In this document: in pieces, positions 17,942 through 61,509 of the stretch
How the letters are laid out: the number at the start of each line of letters is the position of its first letter
Numbering within the stretch: the stretch's first letter is position 1
Source: Eledone cirrhosa
Taxonomy: Eukaryota
Assembly (NCBI GenBank): GCA_964016885.1
Contig: CAXHJY010001158.1
Coordinates: 109,769-173,768, forward strand
Direction: 5' to 3'
Length of the DNA stretch: 64,000 bases
Notes under the pieces: model-generated
Seen by the model: only the letters and a program-made list of their open reading frames with translations
What the model was told of the DNA's origin: nothing
The model's database searches: none
Program-made: the position numbers and the translations under genes

Positions 17942-18030
17942 ACCCTAACCCTAAACCTAACCCCAACTCCAACTCTGACCCTAAACCTAACCCCAACCCC
18001 AACCCTAACCCTAACCCTAACCCTAACCCA
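17942..18030. repeat. Telomere-like (CCCTAA)n tract with variants
   Basis: ACCCTAACCCTAAACCTAACCCC...CCCTAACCCTAACCCTAACCC, fused directly to the spacer repeats. Confidence 0.85.
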
Positions 18031-18613
18031 CGATAGAAGACGTTCGTTACCGCTGGAGCAACGCAAATTACTCCTCGGTTGACGCCAAAAACGAACGCCT
18101 TCTCGACGGCTAGCCGCATTTCGTGATCCGCCTTTCGATTGCGCTTCCGTCGCGGAAAAAGAATTGCCTTTATAGGCCGCCGCCGCCCGACCGGACCCAC
18201 GATAGAAGACGTTCGTTACCGCTGGAGCAACGCAAATTACTCCTCGGTTGACGCCAAAAACGAACGCCTTCTCGACGGCTAGCCGCATTTCGTGATCCGC
18301 CTTTCGATTGCGCTTCCGTCGCGGAAAAAGAATTGCCTTTATAGGCCGCCGCCGCCGCCCGACCGGACCCACGATAGAAGACGTTCGTTACCGCTGGAGC
18401 AACGCAAATTACTCCTCGGTTGACGCCAAAAACGAACGCCTTCTCGACGGCTAGCCGCATTTCGTGATCCGCCTTTCGATTGCGCTTCCGTCGCGGAAAA
18501 AGAATTGCCTTTATAGGCCGCCGCCGCCGCCCGACCGGACCCACGATAGAAGACGTTCGTTACCGCTGGAGCAACGCAAATTACTCCTCGGTTGACGCCA
18601 AAAACGAACGCCT
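18027..18613 (+). promoter_or_regulatory. 169-172 bp rDNA intergenic-spacer-like repeats (3 full + 1 partial); candidate RNA polymerase I spacer promoters
   Basis: Units start at 18027, 18196, 18368 and 18540. Each full unit contains CTTTATAGGCC, and the array lies ~360 bp upstream of the 18S 5' end. The promoter role is inferred from position and from similarity to TATAGG Pol I initiation motifs. Confidence 0.55.
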
Positions 18614-18972
18614 TCCGGTTCGGGCGACGTAAAAGTCTGTAGCCTTTTCGCCGATCCTCGACGATTATCCGCCTTCCGAACAACCGCCTTTCCGCCGTCA
18701 CAGCAGTAGGTACTCGTCCGTCGTAATAGCCGTCATTTTAATGCAGGAGAAACGCCTAAATGCACTGCGATTGACGACGATCTACGACGCGCTTACTCTT
18801 CCTTGCTGCGACGAAGGTTTCGTTCGGCTTTTCGTCGTGGACCCGGTCAGGTCATGCCGCTGATCTCGCGTTGCGTCGTTACCGCTGGAGCAACGCAAAT
18901 TACTCCTCGTTTAACGCCAACATCGAACGCGCTTCGGTTCTCGGTCGTCGTTGTTTTGTTTCGTGCGGAAGA
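18614..18972 (+). other. 5' ETS-like leader (copy 2 at ~53164-53514)
   Basis: CpG-rich sequence lying between the spacer repeats and the exact 18S 5' terminus. Confidence 0.55.
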
Positions 18973-19158
18973 TACCTGGGTGATCCTGCCAGTAGTCATA
19001 TGCTTGTCTCAAAGCTTAAGCCATGCAAGTGGAAGTTCATGCCGTAAACGAAAATGGTGAAACCGCGAATGGCTCAGGAACCGGATCTAATCCTCGGGAC
19101 CGTATTCCTCACCGCGAGGAGAGGATAACTGTGGCAATTCTAGAGCTAATACATGCAA
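18973..19158 (+). pseudogene. 18S rRNA 5' fragment (~185 nt)
   Basis: TACCTGGGTGATCCTGCCAGTAGTCATATGCTTGTCTCAAAG, GTGAAACCGCGAATGGCTCA and GGATAACTGTGGCAATTCTAGAGCTAATACATGC are universal eukaryotic 18S 5' motifs. Confidence 0.95.
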
Positions 19159-19164
19159 TTGAGA

Positions 19165-22100
19165 TCGGAGAGGGAGCGATCCGTCTGCTTGATTCCGATA
19201 ACGAACGAGACATTCGTATCCGAAAGAACGTTTGTCTGGAAACTGGTGAGTCAGTGAGTCGAAAAAAAAATATCTCGGTGGTAGTAGCAAATATTCGAAC
19301 GAGACATTCGTATGCGAAAGAACGTTTGTCGGTGGTAGTAGCAAATATTCGAACGAGACATTCGTATGCGAAAGAACGTTTGTCTGGAAGTGGCGATCCA
19401 TGCCCGGTGGATAGTTGGTTCCGGGTTTTACTATGATTGTTGCAAAACAGAAACTTAAAGGGATTGACAGAATTTGCGATTCCGGAGAGGGGGCGATCCG
19501 TCTGCTTGATTCCGATAACGAACGAGACATTCGTATCCGAAAGAACGTTTGTCTGGAAACTGGTGAGTCAGTGAGTCGAAAAAAAAAATATCTCGGTGGT
19601 AGTAGCAAATATTCGAACGAGACATTCGTATGCGAAAGAACGTTTGTCGGTGGTAGTAGCAAATATTCGAACGAGACATTCGTATGCGAAAGAACGTTTG
19701 TCTGGAAGTGGCGATCCATGCCCGGTGGATAGTTGGTTCCGGGTTTTACTATGATTGTTGCAAAACAGAAACTTAAAGGGATTGACAGAATTTGCGATTC
19801 CGGAGAGGGGGCGATCCGTCTGCTTGATTCCGATAACGAACGAGACATTCGTATCCGAAAGAACGTTTGTCTGGAAACTGGTGAGTCAGTGAGTCGAAAA
19901 AAAAAATATCTCGGTGGTAGTAGCAAATATTCGAACGAGACATTCGTATGCGAAAGAAAAATATCTCGGTGGTAGTAGCAAATATTCGAACGAGACATTC
20001 GTATGCGAAAGAACGTTTGTCTGGAAGTGGCGATCCATGCCCGGTGGATAGTTGGTTCCGGGTTTTACTATGATTGTTGCAAAACAGAAACTTAAAGGGA
20101 TTGACAGAATTTGCGATTCCGGAGAGGGGGCGATCCGTCTGCTTGATTCCGATAACGAACGAGACATTCGTATCCGAAAGAACGTTTGTCTGGAAACTGG
20201 TGAGTCAGTGAGTCGAAAAAAAAATATCTCGGTGGTAGTAGCAAATATTCGTATGCGAAAGAAAAGATCTCGGTGGTAGTAGCAAATATTCGAACGAGAC
20301 ATTCGTAGGCGAAAGAAAAATATCTCGGTGGTAGTAGCAAATATTCGAACGAGACATTCGTATTCGAAAGAACGTTTGTCTGGAAGTTGCGATCCATGCC
20401 CGGTGGATAGTTGGTTCCGGGCTTTACTATGATTGTTGCAAAACAGAAACTTAAAGGGATTGACAGAATTTGCGATTCCGGAGAGGGGGCGATCCGTCTG
20501 CTTGATTTCGATAACGAACGAGACATTCGTATCCGAAAGAACGTTTGTCTGGAAACTGGTGAGTCAGTGAGTCGAAAAAAAAAATATCTCGGTGGTAGTA
20601 GCAAATATTCGAACGAGACATTCGTATGCGAAAGAACGTTTGTCGGTGGTAGTAGCAAATATTCGAACGAGACATTCGTATGCGAAAGAACGTTTGTCTG
20701 GAAGTGGCGATCCATGCCCGGTGGATAGTTGGTTCCGGGTTTTACTATGATTGTTGCAAAACAGAAACTTAAAGGGATTGACAGAATTTGCGATTCCAGA
20801 GAGAGGGCGATCCGTCTGCTTGATTCCGATAACGAACGAGACATTCGTATCCGAAAGAACGTTTGTCTGGAAACTGGTGAGTCAGTGAGTCGAAAAAAAA
20901 ATATCTCGGTGGTAGTAGCAAATATTCGAACGAGACATTCGTATGCGAAAGAACGTTTGTCGGTGGTAGTAGCAAATATTCGAACGAGACATTCGTATGC
21001 GAAAGAACGTTTGTCTGGAAGTGGCGATCCATGCCCGGTGGATAGTTGGTTCCGGGTTTTACTATGATTGTTGCAAAACAGAAACTTAAAGGGATTGACA
21101 GAATTTGCGATTCCGGAGAGGGGGCGATCCGTCTGCTTGATTCCGATAACGAACGAGACATTCGTATCCGAAAGAACGTTTGTCTGGAAACTGGTGAGTC
21201 AGTGAGTCGAAAAAAAAAATATCTCGGTGGTAGTAGCAAATATTCGAACGAGACATTCGTATGCGAAAGAACGTTTGTCGGTGGTAGTAGCAAATATTCG
21301 AACGAGACATTCGTATGCGAAAGAACGTTTGTCTGGAAGTGGCGATCCATGCCCGGTGGATAGTTGGTTCCGGGTTTTACTATGATTGTTGCAAAACAGA
21401 AACTTAAAGGGATTGACAGAATTTGCGATTCCGGAGAGGGGGCGATCCGTCTGCTTGATTCCGATAACGAACGAGACATTCGTATCCGAAAGAACGTTTG
21501 TCTGGAAACTGGTGAGTCAGTGAGTCGAAAAAAAAAATATCTCGGTGGTAGTAGCAAATATTCGAACGAGACATTCGTATGCGAAAGAACGTTTGTCGGT
21601 GGTAGTAGCAAATATTCGAACGAGACATTCGTATGCGAAAGAACGTTTGTCTGGAAGTGGCGATCCATGCCCGGTGGATAGTTGGTTCCGGGTTTTACTA
21701 TGATTGTTGCAAAACAGAAACTTAAAGGGATTGACAGAATTTGCGATTCCGGAGAGGGGGCGATCCGTCTGCTTGATTCCGATAACGAACGAGACATTCG
21801 TATCCGAAAGAACGTTTGTCTGGAAACTGGTGAGTCAGTGAGTCGAAAAAAAAAATATCTCGGTGGTAGTAGCAAATATTCGTATGCGAAAGAAAAGATC
21901 TCGGTGGTAGTAGCAAATATTCGAACGAGACATTCGTAGGCGAAAGAAAAATATCTCGGTGGTAGTAGCAAATATTCGAACGAGACATTCGTATTCGAAA
22001 GAACGTTTGTCTGGAAGTTGCGATCCATGCCCGGTGGATAGTTGGTTCCGGGTTTTACTATGATTGTTGCAAAACAGAAACTTAAAGGGATTGACAGAAT

Positions 22101-25040
22101 TTGCGATTCCGGAGAGGGGGCGATCCGTCTGCTTGATTCCGATAACGAACGAGACATTCGTATCCGAAAGAACGTTTGTCTGGAAACTGGTGAGTCAGTG
22201 AGTCGAAAAAAAAAATATCTCGGTGGTAGTAGCAAATATTCGAACGAGACATTCGTATGCGAAAGAACGTTTGTCGGTGGTAGTAGCAAATATTCGAACG
22301 AGACATTCGTATGCGAAAGAACGTTTGTCTGGAAGTGGCGATCCATGCCCGGTGGATAGTTGGTTCCGGGTTTTACTATGATTGTTGCAAAACAGAAACT
22401 TAAAGGGATTGACAGAATTTGCGATTCCGGAGAGAGGGCGATCCGTCTGCTTGATTCCGATAACGAACGAGACATTCGTATCCGAGAGAACGTTTGTCTG
22501 GAAACTGGTGAGTCAGTGAGTCGAAAAAAAAATATCTCGGTGGTAGTAGCAAATATTCGAACGAGACATTCGTATGCGAAAGAAAAATATCTCGGTGGTA
22601 GTAGCAAATATTCGAACGAGACATTCGTATGCGAAAGAACGTTTGTCTGGAAGTGGCGATCCATGCCCGGTGGATAGTTGGTTCCGGGTTTTACTATGAT
22701 TGTTGCAAAACAGAAACTTAAAGGGATTGACAGAATTTGCCATTCCGGAGAGGGGGCGATCCGTCTGCTTGATTCCGATAACGAACGAGACATTCGTATC
22801 CGAAAGAACGTTTGTCTGGAAACTGGTGAGTCAGTGAGTCGAAAAAAAAATATCTCGGTGGTAGTAGCAAATATTCGAACGAGACATTCGTATGCGAAAG
22901 AACGTTTGTCTGGAAGTGGCGATCCATGCTCGGTGGATAGTTGGTTCCGGGTTTTACTATGATTGTTGCAAAACAGAAACTTAAAGGGATTGACAGAATT
23001 TGCGATTCCGGAGAGGGGGCGATCCGTCTGCTTGATTCCGATAACGAACGAGACATTCGTATCCGAAAGAACGTTTGTCTGGAAACTGGTGAGTCAGTGA
23101 GTCGAAAAAAAAATATCTCGGTGGTAGTAGCAAATATTCGTATGCGAAAGAAAAGATCTCGGTGGTAGTAGCAAATATTCGAACGAGACATTCGTAGGCG
23201 AAAGAAAAATATCTCGGTGGTAGTAGCAAATATTCGAACGAGACATTCGTATGCGAAAGAACGTTTGTCTGGAAACTGGTGAGTCAGTGAGTCGAAAAAA
23301 AAATATCTCGGTGGTAGTAGCAAATATTCGAACGAGACATTCGTATGCGAAAGAACGTTTGTCGGTGGTAGTAGCAAATATTCGAACGAGACATTCGTAT
23401 GCGAAAGAACGTTTGTCTGGAAGTGGCGATCCATGCCCGGTGGATAGTTGGTTCCGGGTTTTACTATGATTGTTGCAAAACAGAAACTTAAAGGGATTGA
23501 CAGAATTTGCGATTCCGGAGAGGGGGCGATCCGTCTGCTTGATTCCGATAACGAACGAGACATTCGTATCCGAAAGAACGTTTGTCTGGAAACTGGTGAG
23601 TCAGTGAGTCGAAAAAAAAATATCTCGGTGGTAGTGGCAAATATTCGAACGAGACATTCGTATGCGAAAGAACGTTTGTCGGTGGTAGTAGCAAATATTC
23701 GAACGAGACATTCGTATGCGAAAGAACGTTTGTCTGGAAGTGGCGATCCATGCCCGGTGGATAGTTGGTTCCGGGTTTTACTATGATTGTTGCAAAACAG
23801 AAACTTAAAGGGATTGACAGAATTTGCGATTCCGGAGAGAGGGCGATCCGTCTGCTTGATTCCGATAACGAACGAGACATTCGTATGCGAAAGAACGTTT
23901 GTCGGTGGTAGTAGCAAATATTCGAACGAGACATTCGTATGCGAAAGAACGTTTGTCGGTGGTAGTAGCAAATATTCGAACGAGACATTCGTATGCGAAA
24001 GAACGTTTGTCTGGAAGTGGCGATCCATGCCCGGTGGATAGTTGGTTCCGGGTTTTACTATGATTGTTGCAAAACAGAAACTTAAAGGGATTGACAGAAT
24101 TTGCGATTCCGGAGAGGGGGCGATCCGTCTGCTTGATTCCGATAACGAACGAGACATTCGTATCCGAAAGAACGTTTGTCTGGAAACTGGTGAGTCAGTG
24201 AGTCGAAAAAAAAATATCTCGGTGGTAGTAGCAAATATTCGAACGAGACATTCGTATGCGAAAGAAAAATATCTCGGTGGTAGTAGCAAATATTCGAACG
24301 AGACATTCGTATGCGAAAGAACGTTTGTCTGGAAGTGGCGATCCATGCCCGGTGGATAGTTGGTTCCGGGTTTTACTATGATTGTTGCAAAACAGAAACT
24401 TAAAGGGATTGACAGAATTTGCCATTCCGGAGAGGGGGCGATCCGTCTGCTTGATTCCGATAACGAACGAGACATTCGTATCCGAAAGAACGTTTGTCTG
24501 GAAACTGGTGAGTCAGTGAGTCGAAAAAAAAATATCTCGGTGGTAGTAGCAAATATTCGAACGAGACATTCGTATGCGAAAGAACGTTTGTCTGGAAGTG
24601 GCGATCCATGCTCGGTGGATAGTTGGTTCCGGGTTTTACTATGATTGTTGCAAAACAGAAACTTAAAGGGATTGACAGAATTTGCGATTCCGGAGAGGGG
24701 GCGATCCGTCTGCTTGATTCCGATAACGAACGAGACATTCGTATCCGAAAGAACGTTTGTCTGGAAACTGGTGAGTCAGTGAGTCGAAAAAAAAATATCT
24801 CGGTGGTAGTAGCAAATATTCGTATGCGAAAAAAAGATCTCGGTGGTAGTAGCAAATATTCGAACGAGACATTCGTATGCGAAAGAAAAATATCTCGGTG
24901 GTAGTAGCAAATATTCGAACGAGACATTCGTATTCGAAAGAACGTTTGTCTGGAAGTTGCGATCCATGCCCGGTGGATAGTTGGTTCCGGGCTTTACTAT
25001 GATTGTTGCAAAACAGAAACTTAAAGGAATTGACAGAATT
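19165..25040 (+). repeat. Tandem array (~18 monomers, ~317 bp, with 54-bp subrepeats) built from 18S and 28S rRNA fragments
   Basis: The monomer contains CGATTCCGGAGAGGG (18S), TTCCGATAACGAACGAGAC (18S), TCGGTGGTAGTAGCAAATATTC (28S, LR7 primer region) and GAAACTTAAAGG(G/A)ATTGAC (18S). Confidence 0.92.
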
Positions 25041-25074
25041 TTCGAATCGACATCAACTCGGCTACGGCTATCCC

Positions 25075-25415
25075 GTCGAGTACGAGAGTATCGCGGGATC
25101 AGAGCAACGGTTTGCTAGGCTGCCTCTGAGCGATAACGGCTGAACGCCTCCTCTAAGCCGGAACCCTAGCCGGACCCGAGTTGTTTTTCGACAAGCGTCT
25201 CGACCTTCTTAAGGCCCATGCCTTAGTTTGGCGATTGCCGTCCGTTCGCCGACGGCGGCAGCGTCAGCGGAAATGCCATTCTGTGACGACTACGACGATT
25301 CGTCGTCGTCGTCGTCCATTCGATTTCCTGAAAGAGATAGAGACTAAAGTGATCAAATTGTTCGGAGTTACGTGCTTAGTAGAGCAGCTACCACACTGCA
25401 ATCTATTGAGAGTTT
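25075..25415 (+). pseudogene. 28S rRNA 3'-terminal fragment, degenerate
   Basis: GAGTACGAGAG (sarcin-ricin loop-like), GATAACGGCTGAACGCCTC(CTC)TAAG and GTAGAGCAGCTACCACACTGCAATCTATTGAGAG occur in the correct order for the LSU 3' end. Confidence 0.85.
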
Positions 25416-26154
25416 TCTGACGAACGATACAATCCGCCCACGTGGCGCCAGAAAGGGAGAAGAAAAGAAAAGTTAGACGCCGCCGATCGATCGGTTCGTT
25501 GTTTTACGTGTACACAGCTTGTGTGTGTGTCTGTATGTGATACAAGCCGCCTATCCGTCTTCCAAGTAAGTTTTGTGTGTAGACTGCGGAAAGAAATCCA
25601 ATCCGCCGTCTAGGCGGTTCTGCCGCCGACCCATACTTTTGCGAGTCGCTCCCGGGAAAGACAGGCGGCAAGACGGCGTGTATACACGACGCCTTCCGTC
25701 TTCCGCCTCGAACCCGGCAAACGTTCCTTTATTCGTCCACGCCTTCCCGCTTCGATCGCGAGAAAGTAATCAATCTGTTTTGTGTGTGTGTCTGTGTGTG
25801 ATACAAATTTGTTTTCTTAATTTGATAACCATGAATTGTTTCAACACCGGCCCTTTTAAGGGCCACTTATATTTTCAATAATCAGTTTAAATGGGTTGCA
25901 CCGTAGCCACTTGGTAATACACTGCAAATCTCCCGTCAATCTATGAAGGTTTTGTAGTAGATTAGATCAAAACACAATCAGCAAGACAGTAATGGAATGA
26001 ATAATATAAACATTTGTTTATAATTAAAGCCTTAAGATGTCCCTCCCTCCCTCCCTTCCTTCCTTCCTTCCTTCGTTCCTTCCTTCCTTACGATATACAC
26101 TTTAATAACATTGAAACTTATTTAATAAGTTTAAATTTTAAACACTTTTTATTC

Positions 26155-26577: not shown

Positions 26578-26844
26578 GGTCTGAGTTCAAATCACGCCGA
26601 GGAGGTTAACTTTGCCTTTCATCCTTACGGGGTCGGTCGGAAAACGAACCATTCCCGGTTCGCTTTCGAAGCGGGTTTCCGAAAACAGCGCTTCTCTCGA
26701 CCGGGCCCGTCGTCCGCTCGGCGGTGGTTTTCATCGTCCCAGGCACGGCTAACAGGCGGAGACGGGACAAACGCGCGTGTTCCTTTTTTTATCAGCCGCA
26801 GCGCCGTTCGTATATATGCTTAGGTTGTTTTTTTTTTAAATATC

Positions 26845-27060
26845 CTAAGTTAAGTTGGGGCTAAGTTAAGTTGAGGTTAAGTTGAGTTGGGGTTAAGTTA
26901 AGTGGGGGTTAAGTTAAGCTGGGGTTAAGTTAAGTTGAGGTTAAGTTAAGTTGGGGTTAAGTCAAGTTGGGGTTAAGTTAAGTTGGGGTTAAGTTAGGTT
27001 GGGGTTAAGTTAGGTTGGGGTTAAGTTAAGTTGGGGTTAAGTTAGGTTGCGGTTAAGTTA
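26845..27060 (+). repeat. 16-bp G-rich repeat (TTGGGGTTAAGTTAAG)n, ~13 copies (copy 2 at ~61278-61509)
   Basis: Read directly. Confidence 0.9.
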
Positions 27061-30000
27061 CATTCGCCGCCGGACTTCAGCTTCCTCATTTAGCATGGGC
27101 AGTTTTTCTTGAAAATCACACCACACACAGCAAATGTGTGTCCGCACATGTACCAGTAATTACAGATCGATTCCGGTGAAAATTCACTGAAAACGGGCCA
27201 TCCGGCCCTGTGCGTCGATCGTGGGCCGGCCGGATGTTGACGGATCGATGTGTAATTAGAAGTACATGTGCGGACACTCATTGGCTGTGCGTGGTATGCA
27301 TTTCAGCAAGATATCTCCGTAACATCAAGAGTTATGGCTGTGGAGGCACACCTAGTCAAACGTAAACAAGGTCTGGAGCGTTTACGCTTCGCGATTTTGT
27401 TTACGTTTGACTAGGTGTGCCTCCACAGCCATAACTCTTGATGTTACGGAGATATCTTGCTGAAATGCATACCGCGCACAGCCAATGAGTGTCCGCACAT
27501 GTACTTCTAATTACACATCGATCCGTCAACATCCGGCCGGCCCACGATCGACGCACAGGGCCTGATGGCCCGTTTTCAGTGAATTTTCACCGGAATCGAT
27601 CTGTAATTACTGGTACATGTGCGGAGACACATTTGCTGTGTGTGGTGTGATTTTCAAGAAGAACTGCCCATGCTAAATGAGGAAGCTGAAGTCCGCCGGC
27701 GAATGGTGTGCTTCGAAGAAAACTAATTCGAAAATGACCGTTTGCAGGCGGGGTAACCTTTTCGATCGTGGGCCAGCCGCCCGTGGTGGGATCCATCTGT
27801 AATTACTGGTACATGTGCGGACACACATTTGCTGTGTGTGGTGTGATTTTCGAGAAAGACTGCCCATGCTAAATGAGGAAGCTGAAGTCCGCCGGCGAAT
27901 GGTGTGCTTCGAAGAAAACTAATTCGAAAATGACTATTTGCCGGCGGAATCATCTTTTCGGTCCTGGTCCGGCCGGATCTTGCCGGATCGATCGGAAATT
28001 TGTGGACCATGTTCGGAAGGCCATTGTGCATGTGTGGTGAAAAGAATTTGTGTCGAAATCTTCTCGGAAAATAACGGATCGCCGGCGGAGATTGCCATTT
28101 CGATCGTGGGCCGGCCGGATCTTGTCGGATCGATTCGGACATATGTGCATCGTGTTCGCAAGGCCCTTGTCTATGTGTGGTGTGATTTTCATAAAGAAAT
28201 TCCGAAAAACCCAGTTTTAAATCTGATTTCGCCAAAGAATTTTGGCTATCAGATCGGGTTGAAAGGTATGGTTTCAGGTCGATCTGAAAGTCTAAAATGG
28301 AATTCACTCGGTTAGCTAACTATTGATATATCGGAGATATCTTTCTGAAAATCACACCACACACTCCCAATGAGTGTCTGCACATGTACCAGTAATTACA
28401 GATGGATCCCACCACGGGCGGCCGGCCCACGATCGAAAAGGTTACTCCGAAGCACACCATTCGCCGGCGGAATTCATTTAGCATGGGCAGTTTTTCTCGA
28501 AAATCACACCACACACAGCCAATGAGTGTCCGCACATGTACCAGTAATTACAGATGGATCCCACCACGGGCGGCTGGCCCACGATCGAAAAGGTTACTCC
28601 GCCTGCAAACGGTCATTTTCGAATTAGTTTTCTTCGAAGCACACCATTCGCCGGCGGACTTCAGCTTCCTCATTTAGCATGGGCAGTTTTTCTCGAAAAT
28701 CACACCACACACAGCAAATGTGTGTCCGCACATGTACCAGTAATTACAGATCGATTCCGGTGAAAATTCACTGAAAACGGGCCATTCTGCCCTGTGCGTC
28801 GATCGTGGGCCGGCCGGATGTTGACGGATCGATGTGTAATTAGAAGTACATGTGCGGACACTCATTGGCTGTGCGTGGTATGCATTTCAGCAAGATATCT
28901 CCGTAACATCAAGAGTTATGGCTGTGGAGGCACACCTAGTCAAACGTAAACAAGCTCTGGAGCGTATACGCTTCGCGATTTTGTTTACGTTTGACTAGGT
29001 GTGCCTCCACAGCCACAACTCTTGATGTTACGGAGATATCTTGCTGAAATGCATACCACGCACAGCCAATGAGTGTCCGCACATGTACTTCTAATTACAC
29101 ATCGATCCGTCAACATCCGGCCGGCCCACGATCGACGCACAGGGCCGGATGGCCCGTTTTCAGTGAATTTTCACCGGAATCGATCTGTAATTACTGGTAC
29201 ATGTGCGGACACACATTTGCTGTGTGTGGTGTGATTTTCACGAAAAACTGCCCATGCTAAATGAGGAAGCTGAAGTCCGCCGGCGAATGGTGTGCTTCGA
29301 AGAAAACTAATTCGAAAATGACCGTTTGCAGGCGGAGTAACCTTTTCGATCGTGGGCCAGCCGCCCGTGGTGGGATACATCTGTAATTACTGGTACATGT
29401 GCGGACACACATTTGCTGTGTGTGGTGTGATTTTCGAGAAAGACTGCCCATGCTAAATGAGGAAGCTGAAGTCCGCCGGCGAATGGTGTGCTTCGAAGAA
29501 AACTAATTCGAAAATGACTATTTGCCGGCGGAATCACCTTTTCGGTCCTGGTCCGGCCGGATCTTGCCGGATCGATCGGAAATTTGTGGACCATGTTCGG
29601 AAGGCCATTGTGCATGTGTGGTGAAAAAAATTTGTGTCGAAATCTTCTCGGAAAATAACGGATCGCCGGCGGAGATTGCCATTTCGATCGTGGGCCGGCC
29701 GGATCTTGTCGGATCGATTCGGACATATGTGCATCGTGTTCGCAAGGCCCTTGTCTATGTGTGGTGTGATTTTCATAAAGAAATTCCGAAAAACCCAGTT
29801 TTAAATCTGATTTCGCCAAAGAATTTTGGCTATCAGATCGGGTTGAAAGGTATGGTTTCAGGTCGATCTGAAAGTCTAAAATGGAATTCACTCGGTTAGC
29901 TAACTATTGATATATCGGAGATATCTTTCTGAAAATCACACCACACACTCCCAATGAGTGTCTGCACATGTACCAGTAATTACAGATGGATCCCACCACG

Positions 30001-30693
30001 GGCGGCCGGCCCACGATCGAAAAGGTTACTCCGAAGCACACCATTCGCCGGCGGAATTCATTTAGCATGGGCAGTTTTTCTCGAAAATCACACCACACAC
30101 AGCCAATGAGTGTCCGCACATGTACCAGTAATTACAGATGGATCCCACCACGGGCGGCTGGCCCACGATCGAAAAGGTTACTCCGCCTGCAAACGGTCAT
30201 TTTCGAATTAGTTTTCTTCGAAGCACACCATTCGCCGGCGGACTTCAGCTTCCTCATTTAGCATGGGCAGTTTTTCTTGAAAATCACACCACACACAGCA
30301 AATGTGTGTCCGCACATGTACCAGTAATTACAGATCGATTCCGGTGAAAATTCACTGAAAACGGGCCATTCGGCCCTGTGCGTCGATCGTGGGCCGGCCG
30401 GATGTTGACGGATCGATGTGTAATTAGAAGTACATGTGCGGACACTCATTGGCTGTGCGTGGTATGCATTTCACTAAGATATCTCCGTAACATCAAGAGT
30501 TATGGCTGTGGAGGCACACCTAGTCAAACGTAAACAAGGTCTGGAGCGTTTACGCTTCGCGATTTTGTTTACGTTTGACTAGGTGTGCCTCCACAGCGAC
30601 AACTCTTGATGTTACGGAGATATCTTGCTGAAATTCATACCACGCACAGCCAATGAGTGTCCGCACATGTACCTGTAATTACACATCGATCCG
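27061..30693. repeat. Palindromic satellite with a 1,584-bp period; symmetry centres at ~27384, 28968 and 30552
   Basis: ...CCTAGTCAAACGTAAACAA [27-bp spacer] TTGTTTACGTTTGACTAGG... with arms up to ~480 bp. ORF pairs are offset by 1584, and there are internal ~195-bp subrepeats. Confidence 0.92.
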
Positions 30694-51646: not shown

Positions 51647-51735
51647 ACCCTAACCCTAAACCTAACCCCAACTCCAACTCTGACCCTAAACCTAACCCCA
51701 ACCCCAACCCTAACCCTAACCCTAACCCTAACCCA
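51647..51735. repeat. Telomere-like (CCCTAA)n tract, copy 2
   Basis: Same as 17942-18030. Confidence 0.85.
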
Positions 51736-53163
51736 CGATAGAAGACGTTCGTTACCGCTGGAGCAACGCAAATTACTCCTCGGTTGACGCCAAAAACGAA
51801 CGCCTTCTCGACGGCTAGCCGCATTTCGTGATCCGCCTTTCGATTGCGCTTCCGTCGCGGAAAAAGAATTGCCTTTATAGGCCGCCGCCGCCCGACCGGA
51901 CCCACGATAGAAGACGTTCGTTACCGCTGGAGCAACGCAAATTACTCCTCGGTTGACGCCAAAAACGAACGCCTTCTCGACGGCTAGCCGCATTTCGTGA
52001 TCCGCCTTTCGATTGCGCTTCCGTCGCGGAAAAAGAATTGCCTTTATAGGCCGCCGCCGCCCGACCGGACCCACGATAGAAGACGTTCGTTACCGCTGGA
52101 GCAACGCAAATTACTCCTCGGTTGACGCCAAAAACGAACGCCTTCTCGACGGCTAGCCGCATTTCGTGATCCGCCTTTCGATTGCGCTTCCGTCGCGGAA
52201 AAAGAATTGCCTTTATAGGCCGCCGCCGCCCGACCGGACCCACGATAGAAGACGTTCGTTACCGCTGGAGCAACGCAAATTACTCCTCGGTTGACGCCAA
52301 AAACGAACGCCTTCTCGACGGCTAGCCGCATTTCGTGATCCGCCTTTCGATTGCGCTTCCGTCGCGGAAAAAGAATTGCCTTTATAGGCCGCCGCCGCCG
52401 CCCGACCGGACCCACGATAGAAGACGTTCGTTACCGCTGGAGCAACGCAAATTACTCCTCGGTTGACGCCAAAAACGAACGCCTTCTCGACGGCTAGCCG
52501 CATTTCGTGATCCGCCTTTCGATTGCGCTTCCGTCGCGGAAAAAGAATTGCCTTTATAGGCCGCCGCCGCCCGACCGGACCCACGATAGAAGACGTTCGT
52601 TACCGCTGGAGCAACGCAAATTACTCCTCGGTTGACGCCAAAAACGAACGCCTTCTCGACGGCTAGCCGCATTTCGTGATCCGCCTTTCGATTGCGCTTC
52701 CGTCGCGGAAAAAGAATTGCCTTTATAGGCCGCCGCCGCCCGACCGGACCCACGATAGAAGACGTTCGTTACCGCTGGAGCAACGCAAATTACTCCTCGG
52801 TTGACGCCAAAAACGAACGCCTTCTCGACGGCTAGCCGCATTTCGTGATCCGCCTTTCGATTGCGCTTCCGTCGCGGAAAAAGAATTGCCTTTATAGGCC
52901 GCCGCCGCCCGACCGGACCCACGATAGAAGACGTTCGTTACCGCTGGAGCAACGCAAATTACTCCTCGGTTGACGCCAAAAACGAACGCCTTCTCGACGG
53001 CTAGCCGCATTTCGTGATCCGCCTTTCGATTGCGCTTCCGTCGCGGAAAAAGAATTGCCTTTATAGGCCGCCGCCGCCGCCCGACCGGACCCACGATAGA
53101 AGACGTTCGTTACCGCTGGAGCAACGCAAATTACTCCTCGGTTGACGCCAAAAACGAACGCCT
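51732..53163 (+). promoter_or_regulatory. 169-172 bp spacer repeats, copy 2 (8 full + 1 partial)
   Basis: Units start at 51732, 51901, 52070, 52239, 52411, 52580, 52749, 52918 and 53090. Confidence 0.55.
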
Positions 53164-53514
53164 TCCGGTTCGGGCGACGTAAAAGTCTGTAGCCTTTTCG
53201 CCGATCCTCGACGATTATCCGCCTTCCGAACAACCGCCGTCACAGCAGTAGGTACTCGTCCGTCGTAATAGCCGTCATTTTAATGCAGGAGAAACGCCTA
53301 AATGCACTGCGATTAACGACGATCTACGACGCGCTTACTCTTCCTTGCTGCGACGAAGGTTTCGTTCGGCTTTTCGTCGTGGACCCGGTCAGGTCATGCC
53401 GCTGATCTCGCGTTGCGTCGTTACCGCTGGAGCAACGCAAATTACTCCTCGTTTAACGCCAACATCGAACGCGCTTCGGTTCTCGGTCGTCGTTGTTTTG
53501 TTTCGTGCGGAAGA

Positions 53515-53700
53515 TACCTGGGTGATCCTGCCAGTAGTCATATGCTTGTCTCAAAGCTTAAGCCATGCAAGTGGAAGTTCATGCCGTAAACGAAAATGGT
53601 GAAACCGCGAATGGCTCAGGAACCGGATCTAATCCTCGGGACCGTATTCCTCACCGCGAGGAGAGGATAACTGTGGCAATTCTAGAGCTAATACATGCAA
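53515..53700 (+). pseudogene. 18S rRNA 5' fragment, copy 2
   Basis: Same motifs as 18973-19158. Confidence 0.95.
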
Positions 53701-53706
53701 TTGAGA

Positions 53707-56700
53707 TCGGAGAGGGAGCGATCCGTCTGCTTGATTCCGATAACGAACGAGACATTCGTATCCGAAAGAACGTTTGTCTGGAAACTGGTGCAGTCAGTGA
53801 GTCGAAAAAAAAATATCTCGGTGGTAGTAGCAAATATTCGAACGAGACATTCGTATGCGAAAGAACGTTTGTCGGTGGTAGTAGCAAATATTCGAACGAG
53901 ACATTCGTATGCGAAAGAACGTTTGTCTGGAAGTGGCGATCCATGCCCGGTGGATAGTTGGTTCCGGGTTTTACTATGATTGTTGCAAAACAGAAACTTA
54001 AAGGGATTGACAGAATTTGCGATTACGGAGAGGGGGCGATCCGTCTGCTTGATTCCGATAACGAACGAGACATTCGTATCCGAAAGAACGTTTGTCTGGA
54101 AACTGGTGAGTCAGTGAGTCGAAAAAAAAAAATCTCGGTGGTAGTGGCAAATATTCGAACGAGACATTCGTATGCGAAAGAACGTTTGTCGGTGGTAGTA
54201 GCAAATATTCGAACGAGACATTCGTATGCGAAAGAACGTTTGTCTGGAAGTGGCGATCCATGCCCGGTGGATAGTTGGTTCCGGGTTTTACTATGATTGT
54301 TGCAAAACAGAAACTTAAAGGGATTGACAGAATTTGCGATTACGGAGAGGGGGCGATCCGTCTGCTTGATTCCGATAACGAACGAGACATTCGTATCCGA
54401 AAGAACGTTTGTCTGGAAACTGGTGAGTCAGTGAGTCGAAAAAAAAATATCTCGGTGGTAGTAGCAAATATTCGAACGAGACATTCGTATGCGAAAGAAC
54501 GTTTGTCGGTGGTAGTAGCAAATATTCGAACGAGACATTCGTATGCGAAAGAACGTTTGTCTGGAAGTGGCGATCCATGCCCGGTGGATAGTTGGTTCCG
54601 GGTTTTACTATGATTGTTGCAAAACAGAAACTTAAAGGGATTGACAGAATTTGCGATTACGGAGAGGGGGCGATCCGTCTGCTTGATTCCGATAACGAAC
54701 GAGACATTCGTATCCGAAAGAACGTTTGTCTGGAAACTGGTGAGTCAGTGAGTCGAAAAAAAAATATCTCGGTGGTAGTAGCAAATATTCGAACGAGACA
54801 TTCGTATGCGAAAGAACGTTTGTCGGTGGTAGTAGCAAATATTCGAACGAGACATTCGTATGCGAAAGAACGTTTGTCTGGAAGTGGCGATCCATGCTCG
54901 GTGGATAGTTGGTTCCGGGTTTTACTATGATTGTTGCAAAACAGAAACTTAAAGGGATTGACAGAATTTGCGATTCCGGAGAGGGGGCGATCCGTCTGCT
55001 TGATTCCGATAACGAACGAGACATTCGTATCCGAAAGAACGTTTGTCTGGAAACTGGTGAGTCGAAAAAAAAATATCTCGGTGGTAGTAGCAAATATTCG
55101 TATGCGAAAGAAAAGATCTCGGTGGTAGTAGCAAATATTCGAACGAGACATTCGTAGGCGAAAGAAAAATATCTCGGTGGTAGTAGCAAATATTCGAACG
55201 AGACATTCGTATGCGAAAGAACGTTTGTCGGTGGTAGTAGCAAATATTCGAACGAGACATTCGTATGCGAAAGAACGTTTGTCGGTGGTAGTAGCAAATA
55301 TTCGAACGAGACATTCGTATGCGAAAGAACGTTTGTCTGGAAGTGGCGATCCATGCCCGGTGGATAGTTGGTTCCGGGTTTTACTATGATTGTTGCAAAA
55401 CAGAAACTTAAAGGGATTGACAGAATTTGCGATTCCGGAGAGAGGGCGATCCGTCTGCTTGATTCCGATAACGAACGAGACATTCGTATCCGAAAGAACG
55501 TTTGTCTGGAAACTGGTGAGTCAGTGAGTCGAAAAAAAAATATCTCGGTGGTAGTAGCAAATATTCGAACGAGACATTCGTATGCGAAAGAACGTTTGTC
55601 GGTGGTAGTAGCAAATATTCGAACGAGACATTCGTATGCGAAAGAACGTTTGTCTGGAAGTGGCGATCCATGCTCGGTGGATAGTTGGTTCCAGGTTTTA
55701 CTATGATTGTTGCAAAACAGAAACTTAAAGGGATTGACAGAATTTGCGATTCCGGAGAGGGGGCGATCCGTCTGCTTGATTCCGATAACGAACGAGACAT
55801 TCGTATCCGAAAGAACGTTTGTCTGGAAACTGGTGAGTCAGTGAGTCGAAAAAAAAAATATCTCGGTGGTAGTAGCAAATATTCGAACGAGACATTCGTA
55901 TGCGAAAGAACGTTTGTCGGTGGTAGTAGCAAATATTCGAACGAGACATTCGTATGCGAAAGAACGTTTGTCTGGAAGTGGCGATCCATGCCCGGTGGAT
56001 AGTTGGTTCCGGGTTTTACTATGATTGTTGCAAAACAGAAACTTAAAGGGATTGACAGAATTTGCGATTCCGGAGAGGGGGCGATCCGTCTGCTTGATTC
56101 CGATAACGAACGAGACATTCGTATCCGAAAGAACGTTTGTCTGGAAACTGGTGAGTCAGTGAGTCGAAAAAAAAATATCTCGGTGGTAGTAGCAAATATT
56201 CGAACGAGACATTCGTATGCGAAAGAACGTTTGTCGGTGGTAGTAGCAAATATTCGAACGAGACATTCGTATGCGAAAGAACGTTTGTCTGGAAGTGGCG
56301 ATCCATGCTCGGTGGATAGTTGGTTCCAGGTTTTACTATGATTGTTGCAAAACAGAAACTTAAAGGGATTGACAGAATTTGCGATTCCGGAGAGGGGGCG
56401 ATCCGTCTGCTTGATTCCGATAACGAACGAGACATTCGTATCCGAAAGAACGTTTGTCTGGAAACTGGTGAGTCAGTGAGTCGAAAAAAAAAATATCTCG
56501 GTGGTAGTAGCAAATATTCGAACGAGACATTCGTATGCGAAAGAACGTTTGTCGGTGGTAGTAGCAAATATTCGAACGAGACATTCGTATGCGAAAGAAC
56601 GTTTGTCTGGAAGTGGCGATCCATGCTCGGTGGATAGTTGGTTCCGGGTTTTACTATGATTGTTGCAAAACAGAAACTTAAAGGGATTGACAGAATTTGC

Positions 56701-59473
56701 GATTCCGGAGAGGGGGCGATCCGTCTGCTTGATTCCGATAACGAACGAGACATTCGTATCCGAAAGAACGTTTGTCTGGAAACTGGTGAGTCAGTGAGTC
56801 GAAAAAAAAATATCTCGGTGGTAGTAGCAAATATTCGAACGAGACATTCGTATGCGAAAGAACGTTTGTCGGTGGTAGTAGCAAATATTCGAACGAGACA
56901 TTCGTATGCGAAAGAACGTTTGTCTGGAAGTGGCGATCCATGCCCGGTGGATAGTTGGTTCCGGGTTTTACTATGATTGTTGCAAGACAGAAACTTAAAG
57001 GGATTGACAGAATTTGCGATTCCGGAGAGGGGGCGATCCGTCTGCTTGATTCCGATAACGAACGAGACATTCGTATCCGAAAGAACGTTTGTCTGGAAAC
57101 TGGTGAGTCGAAAAAAAAATATCTCGGTGGTAGTAGCAAATATTCGAACGAGACATTCGTAGGCGAAAGAAAAATATCTCGGTGGTAGTAGCAAATATTC
57201 GAACGAGACATTCGTATGCGAAAGAACGTTTGTCGGTGGTAGTAGCAAATATTCGAACGAGACATTCGTATGCGAAAGAACGTTTGTCGGTGGTAGTAGC
57301 AAATATTCGAACGAGACATTCGTATGCGAAAGAACGTTTGTCTGGAAGTGGCGATCCATGCCCGGTGGATAGTTGGTTCCGGGTTTTACTATGATTGTTG
57401 CAAAACAGAAACTTAAAGGGATTGACAGAATTTGCGATTCCGGAGAGAGGGCGATCCGTCTGCTTGATTCCGATAACGAACGAGACATTCGTATCCGAAA
57501 GAACGTTTGTCTGGAAACTGGTGAGTCAGTGAGTCGAAAAAAAAATATCTCGGTGGTAGTAGCAAATATTCGTATGCGAAAGAAAAGATCTCGGTGGTAG
57601 TAGCAAATATTCGAACGAGACATTCGTAGGCGAAAGAAAAATATCTCGGTGGTAGTAGCAAATATTCGAACGAGACATTCGTATGCGAAAGAACGTTTGT
57701 CGGTGGTAGTAGCAAATATTCGAACGAGACATTCGTATGCGAAAGAACGTTTGTCGGTGGTAGTAGCAAATATTCGAACGAGACATTCGTATGCGAAAGA
57801 ACGTTTGTCTGGAAGTGGCGATCCATGCCCGGTGGATAGTTGGTTCCGGGTTTTACTATGATTGTTGCAAAACAAAAACTTAAAGGGATTGACAGAATTT
57901 GCGATTCCGGAGAGAGGGCGATCCGTCTGCTTGATTCCGATAACGAACGAGACATTCGTATCCGAAAGAACGTTTGTCTGGAAACTGGTGAGTCAGTGAG
58001 TCGAAAAAAAAATATCTCGGTGGTAGTAGCAAATATTCGAACGAGACATTCGTATGCGAAAGAACGTTTGTCGGTGGTAGTAGCAAATATTCGAACGAGA
58101 CATTCGTATGCGAAAGAACGTTTGTCTGGAAGTGGCGATCCATGCCCGGTGGATAGTTGGTTCCGGGTTTTACTATGATTGTTGCAAAACAAAAACTTAA
58201 AGGGATTGACAGAATTTGCGATTCCGGAGAGAGGGCGATCCGTCTGCTTGATTCCGATAACGAACGAGACATTCGTATCCGAAAGAACGTTTGTCTGGAA
58301 ACTGGTGAGTCAGTGAGTCGAAAAAAAAAATATCTCGGTGGTAGTAGCAAATATTCGAACGAGACATTCGTATGCGAAAGAACGTTTGTCGGTGGTAGTA
58401 GCAAATATTCGAACGAGACATTCGTATGCGAAAGAACGTTTGTCTGGAAGTGGCGATCCATGCTCGGTGGATAGTTGGTTCCGGGTTTTACTATGATTGT
58501 TGCAAAACAGAAACTTAAAGGGATTGACAGAATTTGCGATTCCGGAGAGGGGGCGATCCGTCTGCTTGATTCCGATAACGAACGAGACATTCGTATCCGA
58601 AAGAACGTTTGTCTGGAAACTGGTGAGTCAGTGAGTCGAAAAAAAAATATCTCGGTGGTAGTAGCAAATATTCGAACGAGACATTCGTATGCGAAAGAAC
58701 GTTTGTCGGTGGTAGTAGCAAATATTCGAACGAGACATTCGTATGCGAAAGAACGTTTGTCTGGAAGTGGCGATCCATGCCCGGTGGATAGTTGGTTCCG
58801 GGTTTTACTATGATTGTTGCAAAACAGAAACTTAAAGGGATTGACAGAATTTGCGATTCCAGAGAGAGGGCGATCCGTCTGCTTGATTCCGATAACGAAC
58901 GAGACATTCGTATCCGAAAGAACGTTTGTCTGGAAACTGGTGAGTCAGTGAGTCGAAAAAAAAATATCTCGGTGGTAGTAGCAAATATTCGAACGAGACA
59001 TTCGTATGCGAAAGAACGTTTGTCTGGAAGTGGCGATCCATGCCCGGTGGATAGTTGGTTCCGGGTTTTACTATGATTGTTGCAAAACAGAAACTTAAAG
59101 GGATTGACAGAATTTGCGATTCCGGAGAGAGGGCGATCCGTCTGCTTGATTCCGATAACGAACGAGACATTCGTATCCGAAAGAACGTTTGTCTGGAAAC
59201 TGGTGAGTCAGTGAGTCGAAAAAAAAATATCTCGGTGGTAGTAGCAAATATTCGTATGCGAAAGAAAAGATCTCGGTGGTAGTAGCAAATATTCGAACGA
59301 GACATTCGTATGCGAAAGAAAAATATCTCGGTGGTAGTAGCAAATATTCGAACGAGACATTCGTATTCGAAAGAACGTTTGTCTGGAAGTTGCGATCCAT
59401 GCCCGGTGGATAGTTGGTTCCGGGCTTTACTATGATTGTTGCAAAACAGAAACTTAAAGGAATTGACAGAATT
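53707..59473 (+). repeat. rRNA-fragment mosaic tandem array, copy 2 (~17 monomers)
   Basis: Same monomer as 19165-25040, with a different order of length variants. Confidence 0.92.
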
Positions 59474-59507
59474 TTCGAATCGACATCAACTCGGCTACGG
59501 CTATCCC

Positions 59508-59848
59508 GTCGAGTACGAGAGTATCGCGGGATCAGAGCAACGGTTTGCTAGGCTGCCTCTGAGCGATAACGGCTGAACGCCTCCTCTAAGCCGGAACCCT
59601 AGCCGGACCCGAGTTGTTTTTCGACAAGCGTCTCGACCTTCTTAAGGCCCATGCCTTAGTTTGGCGATTGCCGTCCGTTCGCCGACGGCGGCAGCGTCAG
59701 CGGAAATGCCATTCTGTGACGACTACGACGATTCGTCGTCGTCGTCGTCCATTCGATTTCCTGAAAGAGATAGAGACTAAAGTGATCAAATTGTTCGGAG
59801 TTACGTGCTTAGTAGAGCAGCTACCACACTGCAATCTATTGAGAGTTT
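59508..59848 (+). pseudogene. 28S rRNA 3'-terminal fragment, copy 2
   Basis: Same as 25075-25415. Confidence 0.85.
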
Positions 59849-61509
59849 TCTGACGAACGATACAATCCGCCCACGTGGCGCCAGAAAGGGAGAAGAAAAG
59901 AAAAGTTAGACGCCGCCGATCGATCGGTTCGTTGTTTTACGTGTACACAGCTTGTGTGTGTGTCTGTATGTGATACAAGCCGCCTATCCGTCTTCCAAGT
60001 AAGTTTTGTGTGTAGACTGCGGAAAGAAATCCAATCCGCCGTCTAGGCGGTTCTGCCGCCGACCCATACTTTTGCGAGTCGCTCCCGGGAAAGACAGGCG
60101 GCAAGACGGCGTGTATACACGACGCCTTCCGTCTTCCGCCTCGAACCCGGCAAACGTTCCTTTATTCGTCCACGCCTTCCCGCTTCGATCGCGAGAAAGT
60201 AATCAATCTGTTTTGTGTGTGTGTCTGTGTGTGATACAAATTTGTTTTCTTAATTTGATAACCATGAATTGTTTCAACACCGGCCCTTTTAAGGGCCACT
60301 TATATTTTCAATAATCAGTTTAAATGGGTTGCACCGTAGCCACTTGGTAATACACTGCAAATCTCCCGTCAATCTATGAAGGTTTTGTAGTAGATTAGAT
60401 CAAAACACAATCAGCAAGACAGTAATGGAATGAATAATATAAACATTTGTTTATAATTAAAGCCTTAAGATGTCCCTCCCTCCCTCCCTTCCTTCCTTCC
60501 TTCCTTCCTTCCTTCCTTCCTTACGATATACACTTTAATAACATTGAAACTTATTTAATAAGTTTAAATTTTAAACACTTTTTATTCAGACGTACCGCGA
60601 TAAGTAACTAGATATGTTCTAACGAATAATCCGCGATGTGGCGAGGATTACCGCGATAGGAAATTAGATACGTTCCAAAGAAATATCCGCGAAAAGTGAA
60701 CCGCGATATAGCGGGTTCACCAGCCAGTGTATTACTGGTACTTTATTTTATCGACCCCCATAAGGATGAAAGGCAAAGTTAACTGTGCAATAACAAAGGG
60801 AGATAACCTCGTCTTTTTTTTTTTACGGAGTTATTTCCCTTTAAATTTTATCTATTACTTATGATGATACAATTTAATCAGTTCTTAGCTGTCGAGACAC
60901 TGCATCCTTTAAAACCTCCATGGAACAAGCTACCTGCAACAGTTGTTAGCTGTCGAGACACTGCATCTTTTAAAACCTCCATGGAACAAACTACCTGCAT
61001 CAGTTGTTAGGGTCTGAGTTCAAATCACGCCGAGGAGGTTAACTTTGCCTTTCATCCTTACGGGGTCGGTCGGAAAACGAACCATTCCCGGTTCGCTTTC
61101 GAAGCGGGTTTCCGAAAACAGCGCTTCTCTCGACCGGGCCCGTCGTCCGCTCGGCGGTGGTTTTCATCGTCCCAGGCACGGCTAACAGGCGGAGACGGGA
61201 CAAACGCGCGTGTTCCTTTTTTTATCAGCCGCAGCGCCGTTCGTATATATGCTTAGGTTGTTTTTTTTTTAAATATCCTAAGTTAAGTTGGGGCTAAGTT
61301 AAGTTGGGGCTAAGTTAAGTTGGGGCTAAGTTAAGTTGAGGTTAAGTTAAGTGGGGGTTAAGTTAAGCTGGGGTTAAGTTAAGTTGAGGTTAAGTTAAGT
61401 TGGGGTTAAGTCAAGTTGGGGTTAAGTTAAGTTGGGGTTAAGTTAGGTTGGGGTTAAGTTAGGTTGGGGTTAAGTTAAGTTGGGGTTAAGTTAGGTTGCG
61501 GTTAAGTTA

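What the first reader, a model, noticed from the sequence alone, without database searches (positions are those of the whole stretch)
19165..19485. The array monomer is a mosaic of non-adjacent 18S and 28S segments joined at microhomologies
One ~317 bp monomer reads as follows (positions are approximate, recalled yeast-type numbering). CGATTCCGGAGAGGGAGC (18S ~370) is fused through a shared GGAGC to GGAGCGAT..GTCTG.TT.ATTCCGATAACGAACGAGAC (18S ~1300). CATTCGTAT/GCGAAAG follows (18S ~880-940, weaker match). GATCTCGGTGGTAGTAGCAAATATTC.AACGAGA (28S LR7 region) is joined through a shared AACGAGA. Last comes GTTCCGGG..TATG..TTGCAAA...GAAACTTAAAGGAATTGAC (18S ~1110-1145). The pieces come from two different rRNAs, are out of native order and are all in the sense orientation. 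Inference: they were assembled by repeated microhomology-mediated deletion or RT template switching on rRNA, then amplified.
Basis: partly seen in the sequence, partly recalled or inferred. Interest (0 to 1): 0.82.

Follow-up and report, generated by a model that had tools for sequence, protein, structure and literature searches.

The report
Satellite stitched from scrambled rDNA scraps
This animal genome holds at least 59 copies of a gutted ribosomal RNA gene whose middle is a tandem repeat stitched from 18-62-base scraps of 18S, spacer and 28S sequence; the scraps were likely joined by DNA repair at short shared words, and the array is likely an inert passenger, although whether it makes RNA is untested.

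Summary
The mosaic is real. Against the genome's own rDNA, the ~317-bp monomer tiles as 18S 575-592, 18S 2042-2080, ITS1 (19/19), a probably inverted ITS1 piece, 28S 2083-2121, 28S 1396-1413 (weak) and 18S 1843-1900. Four pieces beat all 500 shuffles. Three junctions share 5, 10 and 4 bases (random: 0.7%, 0.006%, 2%). The array (18 monomers) sits inside a cassette that runs 5'ETS, 18S start, array, 28S end, IGS. It lacks the putative Pol I start, is ~6% diverged, and lies in a ~34-kb macro-repeat: 59 cassettes and 922 monomers in the assembly, against 21 canonical 18S hits. End monomers keep ancestral bases, so one pre-built monomer expanded in place. Best reading: DNA-level microhomology template switching in a displaced rDNA unit, then two rounds of tandem amplification. 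Open points: pieces are enriched for conserved rRNA core (P~0.01), and expression is untested. This scan noted the same cassette before on other stretches of this genome. New variant of rDNA-derived satellites.

The parts
17942..18029 (+). (TAACCC)n telomere-like tract; left end of the cassette, joined to the ETS repeat through ACCC (4 bp)
18026..18615 (+). 169-172-bp tandem repeats built from host 5'ETS subrepeats that lie downstream of the putative Pol I start
   Evidence: 93-95% to C12 stretch 2076-2501; start motif at 1896 absent from the window
18616..18972 (+). rearranged 5'ETS remnant: 2943-3186, a jump back to an ETS subrepeat (3-bp TCG), then the last 44 nt of ETS; ~830 nt of ETS lost
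18973..19163 (+). 18S 5' end (nt 1-191), ~4% substitutions including conserved positions
   Evidence: Rfam RF01960 weak hit
19166..25049 (+). mosaic satellite array, 18 monomers of about 263-410 bp (mode 317-318), with a variable 54-bp internal repeat
19166..19177 (+). piece A: 18S 581-592 (full form 575-592 at 19477-19494); ends in GGAGC shared with piece B
19173..19211 (+). piece B: 18S 2042-2080 (38/39); ends in CGAACGAGAC, shared with 28S
19213..19231 (+). ITS1 piece, 19/19 exact; repeated at 19307-19325 and 19361-19379
19230..19272 (-). block D: probably an inverted, internally deleted copy of the ITS1 stretch that follows the forward ITS1 piece; its middle ~20 nt are unassigned
19272..19310 (+). 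piece E: 28S 2083-2121 (38/39), joined to ITS1 through TTCG; repeated at 19329-19364
19391..19408 (+). piece F: 28S 1396-1413 (17/18; E 0.045, weak)
19411..19472 (+). piece G/H: 18S 1843-1900, with a clustered change in the G-run
25050..25474 (+). 28S 3' end (sarcin-ricin loop region to terminus) with 26-, 33- and 15-nt deletions and ~8% substitutions
   Evidence: Rfam RF02543 61.6 bits
25521..25802 (+). IGS-derived pieces, stopping ~300 nt before the first spacer copy of the putative start motif
25805..25877 (+). 73-bp arm of a dispersed palindromic (MITE-like) repeat; carries the Rfam Histone3-like hairpin; right end of the cassette
51731..60310 (+). second cassette in the next macro-unit (8.5 ETS repeats, 17 monomers)

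Best explanation
The monomer is a mosaic of host 18S, ITS1 and 28S scraps inside a gutted rDNA cassette that lacks the putative Pol I start; it was likely built on DNA by serial microhomology-mediated template switching or end joining in one displaced rDNA unit, was then expanded in place and again within a ~34-kb macro-repeat, and is likely an inert passenger satellite. Shown: the donors, the shared words at three junctions, the collinear ETS/18S and 28S/IGS flanks, the absence of the start motif, the copy numbers and the edge effect. Inferred: the repair pathway (MMBIR/FoSTeS or Pol-theta type), the inversion, the order of events and the lack of function. One burst cannot be told from several steps.
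For: Donors include sequence absent from mature rRNA: ITS1 19/19, 5'ETS, and IGS 2-2.3 kb past the 28S end. A probably inverted ITS1 piece abuts the forward ITS1 piece (top of 3050 windows); passages or abstracts on repair-made templated insertions describe short pieces, few-base overlaps and same-locus inverted pairs (PMC13065848; PMC11724301 abstract). Overlaps of 5, 10 and 4 bp against a null of 0.7%, 0.006% and 2.1%. The outer joins are to DNA repeats: (TAACCC)n through 4 bp and a dispersed palindromic repeat through 2 bp. Edge effect: 8 of 8 first monomers keep the ancestral A in GGAGC while 92 of 92 inner ones have G; 8 of 8 last monomers keep ancestral GGAATTGAC while 135 of 135 inner ones have GGGATTGAC (exact-match monomers in 9 fetched arrays). 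Monomer number varies from 4 to 24 per cassette. Decay: 80 of 1313 flank positions substituted, transversions as common as transitions, against <=1.2% between canonical units. The putative start motif is absent from the window, and its 18 exact hits lie on contigs with canonical units, none on C18, C28 or C1185. No fold signal (z -1.0). 59 cassettes: 44 in tandem on C28, 1 on C18, 14 unplaced; 922 monomers. Read-derived contigs of run X1 bridge the 18S-start/A/B junction (X1 may be the assembled sample).
Against: Donor pieces favour the conserved rRNA core: 5 of 6 at >=0.6 conservation where 34% is expected (P 0.018); mean 0.71 against 0.35 (P 0.007; 0.02-0.03 without the piece used as search word) (13 of 17 long metagenome rDNA contigs used; post hoc). 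Lower GC (P 0.07) and weaker ssDNA hairpins explain this only weakly. 5 of 8 monomer junctions show 0-3 bp overlap or short unassigned inserts. About a quarter of the monomer is unassigned. No intermediate with the unmutated A/B junction was found (0 hits). One inner-position exception to the edge effect is visible in the list. The Pol I start is inferred from a recalled plant-like TATATAGGG motif repeated in the IGS, not mapped. Lacking a promoter fits a retrocopy equally well. Expression is untested.
Confidence: 0.7

Rival explanations
1. A retroelement RT, most plausibly the resident R2, copied pre-rRNA and rRNA breakdown fragments with serial template jumps, giving a promoterless concatemer that was inserted and later amplified.
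For: The cassette covers only sequence between two putative Pol I starts. Five of six confidently placed donors are sense-strand conserved core, as protected rRNA fragments might be. A full-length R2-like ORF (1214 aa, RVT_1) sits in a 28S copy. R2 RT jumps to small RNAs in vivo (PMC3414825, passages) and across >=10 templates in vitro (PMC8594491, passages). One flank deletion removes a strong hairpin (top 1%).
Against: R2-type jumping is end to end, with overhangs above 2 nt inhibitory, unlike the 4-10-bp overlaps here. The probable inverted ITS1 piece and the IGS pieces do not fit a sense RNA template. No A-tail or target duplication was seen at the ends, and there is no informative match to R2 itself (one 10-mer). 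Only 1 of 6 flank gaps is an outstanding hairpin.
Confidence: 0.13
2. The array is transcribed and selected: a concatemer of conserved rRNA cores that acts as a decoy for snoRNPs or assembly factors, a source of rRNA-matching small RNAs, or a nucleolus-associating chromatin domain.
For: Core enrichment (P 0.007-0.03). All monomers face one way between native ETS and 28S/IGS ends. Cassettes outnumber assembled canonical units, 59 to 21. Cassettes are highly homogeneous (40 of 40 scored copies 100% over 206 bp).
Against: No putative Pol I start. Substitutions hit conserved rRNA positions and two of them swept through the inner monomers. Monomer number and make-up vary freely. No fold signal. Recent amplification explains the homogeneity. 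The macro-unit is otherwise LINE/SINE scraps and simple repeats.
Confidence: 0.13
3. Assembly or library artefact (chimeric rRNA reads).
For: rDNA is hard to assemble; the window is on an unplaced contig.
Against: 44 copies are spaced 28-50 kb apart in unique order on C28 with different monomer strings. The flanks carry ~6% fixed substitutions. Read-derived contigs hold the junctions.
Confidence: 0.02

Closest known systems
rDNA-derived satellites from the 35S/45S IGS (tomato, PMC2679016, abstract and outline seen; review list in PMC12692304, passages seen)
   Same: A tandem repeat born inside degenerate rDNA units and homogenised by amplification.
   Different: There the monomer is an IGS subrepeat and coding sequence is eliminated; here the monomer is a chimera of 18S, ITS1 and 28S pieces, and the IGS promoter repeats are lost.
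Capsicum 35S rDNA 'mega-satellite' (Grabiele 2018, as described in PMC13655049, passages seen)
   Same: Large rDNA-derived units with coding parts and spacers, amplified outside active loci and likely to light up with rDNA probes.
   Different: Described as larger contiguous fragments; no nested satellite of 18-62-nt scrambled pieces is described in the passages seen.
5S rDNA-derived satellites (PcP190 of frogs, Hoplias 5S-derived repeat; reference titles seen in PMC12692304)
   Same: Satellite monomer made from rRNA coding sequence.
   Different: One donor gene, contiguous; not a multi-donor mosaic.
Displaced, degrading rDNA pseudogenes (human, PMC5381670, abstract seen)
   Same: rDNA units with IGS outside the arrays, decaying neutrally.
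   Different: Those fade; this one was scrambled and re-amplified at two scales.
Chromoanasynthesis / MMBIR templated-insertion chains (PMC13065848, abstract and passages; PMC11724301, abstract)
   Same: Chains of short templated pieces, few-base overlaps, same-locus inverted pairs, next to a telomere-type repeat.
   Different: Somatic or experimental single events; here fixed in the germline, drawn from one locus type and turned into a satellite.

Membership tests
rDNA-derived satellite DNA | Head-to-tail tandem array of a homogenised monomer | tested here: met
   18 monomers, 96-99% matches between neighbours; 922 in the assembly
rDNA-derived satellite DNA | Monomer homologous to the host's rDNA beyond chance | tested here: met
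rDNA-derived satellite DNA | Amplified apart from intact rDNA units | tested here: met
   44 cassettes on C28 124.7-126.5 Mb, with no 18S 30-mer or start-motif hit there
rDNA-derived satellite DNA | Monomer taken from one contiguous IGS (or 5S) segment, as in described cases | tested here: not met
   six or seven non-adjacent donors from 18S, ITS1 and 28S; this is the variant feature
rDNA-derived satellite DNA | Heterochromatic block seen by FISH or methylation | not testable with these tools
   no cytology or methylation data; no CpG-transition excess in the flanks (11 of 299 CpG sites, 24 of 1014 others)
functional 45S rDNA unit or variant | Complete 18S, 5.8S and 28S | tested here: not met
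   no 5.8S; only 191 nt of 18S start and ~420 nt of 28S end
functional 45S rDNA unit or variant | Pol I promoter / start site | tested here: not met
   putative start motif absent; the motif's role is inferred, not mapped
fragmented, scrambled rRNA genes (Plasmodium-mitochondrion type) | Fragments together cover the rRNA core and keep its structure | tested here: not met
   <200 nt of core, mutated, while intact genes exist elsewhere; family features recalled, papers seen only as a listing
processed rRNA retrocopy / R2 template-jump product | Only sense, RNA-borne sequence | tested here: inconclusive
   probable inverted ITS1 and IGS pieces argue against; the inversion is degenerate and the terminator is unmapped
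processed rRNA retrocopy / R2 template-jump product | End-to-end joins with <=2-nt overlap, A-tail or target duplication | tested here: not met
   4-10-bp overlaps at three joins; no tail or duplication seen
MMBIR/TMEJ templated-insertion chain | Short templated pieces with microhomology above chance | tested here: met
MMBIR/TMEJ templated-insertion chain | Dependence on Pol theta / Pol delta, single event | not testable with these tools
   historical event; no intermediates found

The most novel reading that the evidence does not exclude
The array is a selected, transcribed 'ribosome-core concatemer': a mini rDNA, about as abundant as the real genes, whose RNA strings together conserved 18S/28S core motifs and works as a snoRNP or assembly-factor decoy, or as a source of rRNA-directed small RNAs. 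This would be a new kind of regulatory or selfish locus made from rRNA parts.
Probability: 0.1. Interest if true: 0.85.

Novelty: new variant of a known kind. Interest (0 to 1): 0.45.

Why it matters
It is an unusually legible case of satellite birth. Donors, junction words, a probable inversion, ancestral end monomers and two nested scales of amplification can all be read from the sequence, which links repair-type template switching to the origin of a new satellite monomer, a step that is usually erased. In practice such arrays would inflate rDNA copy-number estimates, give false rDNA FISH signals and offer primer sites in conserved 18S/28S motifs. If the core enrichment reflects selection on an RNA, it would point to a new class of rRNA-mimic locus; that is directly testable with RNA data.

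Tried and rejected
18S ~880-940 origin of the CATTCGTAT piece: rejected, ITS1 matches 19/19. A separate 18S 1976-1986 piece (11-mer GGATTGACAGA): dropped; terminal monomers keep GGAATTGAC, and one CpG change explains the rest. Histone mRNA origin of the Rfam Histone3 hit: rejected; in 12 loci fetched of 128 hits it is mostly the arm of a palindromic repeat, and no histone peptide motif was found. R2 or its short 28S insertion as donor of block D: only a 9-10-mer, left unassigned. Ancestral A/B junction elsewhere in the genome: 0 hits (no proof of absence). Protein coding: minus-strand ORFs up to 674 aa are repeat read-through and shift frame with poly-A length; not pursued. RNA fold: z -1.0. 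Hairpin skipping or GC bias as the cause of core enrichment: weak. Organism B run X4 holds the monomer without listed differences at depth ~12 while its sibling runs hold next to none, read as likely trace carry-over rather than a second species. Runs of organisms C and D showed only native rRNA pieces running on into native sequence, with no chimeric join (not proof of absence). In X1 the junction contig has depth 3770 and the native 18S-start contig 4526, a hint of similar abundance but not a copy number. Three junction 20-mers were absent from the 79 metagenome rDNA loci listed. Paper searches (open-access PMC and bioRxiv only) listed no multi-donor 18S/ITS1/28S satellite; subscription papers were not searched and no supplements were read.

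Full report
Setting. The window is G000:C1185:109769-173768 in a 3.0-Gb animal assembly. The 2.9-kb 18S and the repeat text recall a coleoid cephalopod; this is recalled and was not tested. The finding is the first monomer of an array at 19166-25049. Rfam sees a weak 18S start just upstream and a 28S end just downstream, so the array sits inside an rDNA-like frame. A second copy lies ~34 kb on.

Host reference. 5.8S and 18S searches located canonical units (21 exact hits of an 18S 30-mer). I fetched six places: five are near-complete units and one (C28 97.76 Mb) holds two swapped 18S fragments. The C12 stretch served as reference: 18S 4066-6941, 5.8S 7476-7634, 28S from 8263. 28S numbers below count from 8263 and lie upstream of a 1.2-kb insertion at the R2 site.

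Tiling. A = 18S 575-592; B = 18S 2042-2080 (38/39); ITS1 19/19; block D; E = 28S 2083-2121 (38/39); ITS1 again; an optional 54-bp repeat of E+ITS1; F = 28S 1396-1413 (17/18); G/H = 18S 1843-1900. In 500 dinucleotide shuffles the best score was 16, against 36, 33, 28 and 19 for E, B, H and ITS1; A and F do not clear that bar alone. A is supported by its 5-bp overlap with B and by its place in native order; F remains weak. Block D (19230-19272) begins and ends with words from the reverse strand of the ~75 nt of ITS1 that follow the forward piece, and that window ranks first of 3050 and first in the four other units (narrowly in C25). This is best read as an in-place inversion later eroded. About a quarter of the monomer stays unassigned.

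Junctions. A/B share GGAGC (5), B/E share CGAACGAGAC (10) and E/ITS1 share TTCG (4). Random junctions in this rDNA reach 5, 10 and 4 bp in 0.7%, 0.006% and 2.1% of draws. The other five monomer joins, read by eye, show about 2, 1, 3, 0 and 0 bp, the last two with 2- and 6-nt inserts. Three of eight at >=4 bp has a binomial chance near 5e-4 (hand calculation; B/E and E/ITS1 are linked). The order A, B, ITS1, D, E is native, so deletions suffice for the first half. The 10-bp word shared by 18S and 28S then explains the back-jump and the internal repeat. F and G/H need two more backward switches.

Cassette. Left: a (TAACCC)n tract joined by ACCC to 5'ETS subrepeats, a rearranged ETS and 18S 1-191. 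Right: the 28S end with 26-, 33- and 15-nt deletions, IGS pieces, and a 73-bp arm of a dispersed palindromic repeat. Canonical units repeat a TATTATATAGGG motif in the IGS, with the last copy 2170 nt before 18S; I take it as the Pol I start from its likeness to the plant motif (recalled). The cassette begins ~220 nt after it and ends ~300 nt before the next copy, and the window has none. Its 18 genome-wide exact hits are all away from the cassettes. Flanks differ from canonical at 80 of 1313 sites, without CpG excess, while canonical units differ by <=1.2% in two of these segments.

Amplification. 59 cassettes carry the exact 18S-start/A junction: 44 in tandem over 1.73 Mb of C28, 1 on C18 and 14 on five unplaced contigs. 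There are 922 monomers. Nine fetched arrays all read S-[monomer]n-L where the ends were in view, with 4-24 monomers. First and last monomers keep ancestral bases (8 of 8 each) where all 92 and 135 inner exact-match monomers are derived (one exception is visible). One assembled monomer therefore expanded in place, and the macro-unit then multiplied. Read-derived contigs of run X1 bridge the junctions, which argues against an assembly chimera, though X1 may be the assembled sample.

Mechanism. ITS1, ETS and IGS donors, the probable inversion, 4-10-bp overlaps and joins to DNA repeats point to DNA-level template switching or end joining, as described for templated-insertion chains (PMC13065848, abstract and passages; PMC11724301, abstract). 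RT on mature rRNA is disfavoured. RT on pre-rRNA remains possible, because the cassette is promoterless and a full-length R2-like element exists; but R2 jumping is end to end with <=2-nt pairing (PMC8594491 and PMC3414825, passages).

Unexplained. Scored against 13 outside eukaryote rDNA contigs (13 of 17 long loci), five of six donors lie in conserved core where a third is expected (P 0.018; mean conservation 0.71 against 0.35, P 0.007; 0.02-0.03 without E). The test is post hoc and n is small, and unassigned pieces may be decayed non-core. GC and hairpin biases explain little. This keeps a functional-RNA reading alive at ~10%. Expression was not tested.

Known relatives. Satellites from the IGS (PMC2679016, abstract), from 5S (titles in PMC12692304), rDNA mega-satellites (PMC13655049, passages) and decaying rDNA orphons (PMC5381670, abstract) are known; PMC10946416 (passages) added nothing closer. 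Searches of open-access papers listed no satellite whose monomer is a multi-donor 18S/ITS1/28S mosaic. Two earlier notes of this scan on other stretches of the same genome reached the same reading (seen after I had recorded mine); they are not independent support.

Verdict. A real, new variant of rDNA-derived satellite; likely inert, and informative about how satellites are born. Interest 0.45.

Noticed in passing
L042 ~2074-7042 (G000 C2 28S copy): Full-length R2-like retrotransposon at the canonical 28S site; 1214-aa open frame with C2H2 fingers and RVT_1.
   Followed up: partly
C12, C25 and C6 stretches (e.g. L034 ~1963-3200); the same 5' start in C4: A ~1.2-kb insertion at the R2 site that shares only ~31 bp with the R2 5' end (possible ribozyme region): a candidate SIDE-like non-autonomous element. 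All 5 near-complete 28S copies fetched carry an insertion there, so the active rDNA arrays may be missing from the assembly.
   Followed up: partly
window 11027-11862 and 44748-45583: Second, separately rearranged relic of the 5'ETS subrepeats in the same macro-unit, 81% alike to 18441-18930 and also preceded by a short TAACCC-type tract.
   Followed up: partly
window 26641-26846 and 61074-61279: Isolated 206-bp piece of a 28S expansion segment (97-99% at aligned sites) between a SINE-like piece and a 16-bp repeat.
   Followed up: partly
window 25805-25877: Rfam Histone3 hit is the arm of a dispersed palindromic repeat (128 exact hits, many as inverted pairs 67 bp apart on C18); a false histone signal or a histone-derived foldback element.
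   Followed up: partly
window 27060-30700 and from 61510: Array of ~1584-bp period made of long perfect palindromes and 196-bp subrepeats, variable in copy number between macro-units.
   Followed up: no
window 38442-41015 (-): Intact 857-aa endonuclease-RT LINE frame inside a (TA)n tract, present in only one of the two macro-units: a recent insertion.
   Followed up: partly
L037 5659-6309 (G000 C28 97.76 Mb): Solitary 18S orphon of two overlapping fragments in swapped order (5781-6149, then 5665-5940 of the C12 stretch); other orphons carry 0.4-2.6-kb deletions.
   Followed up: no
L045-L047 (G000 C18 6.71-6.74 Mb): The lone C18 cassette is cut ~300 bp into the 28S end and followed by a 3.3-kb duplication of the upstream flank and ETS repeats.
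   Followed up: no
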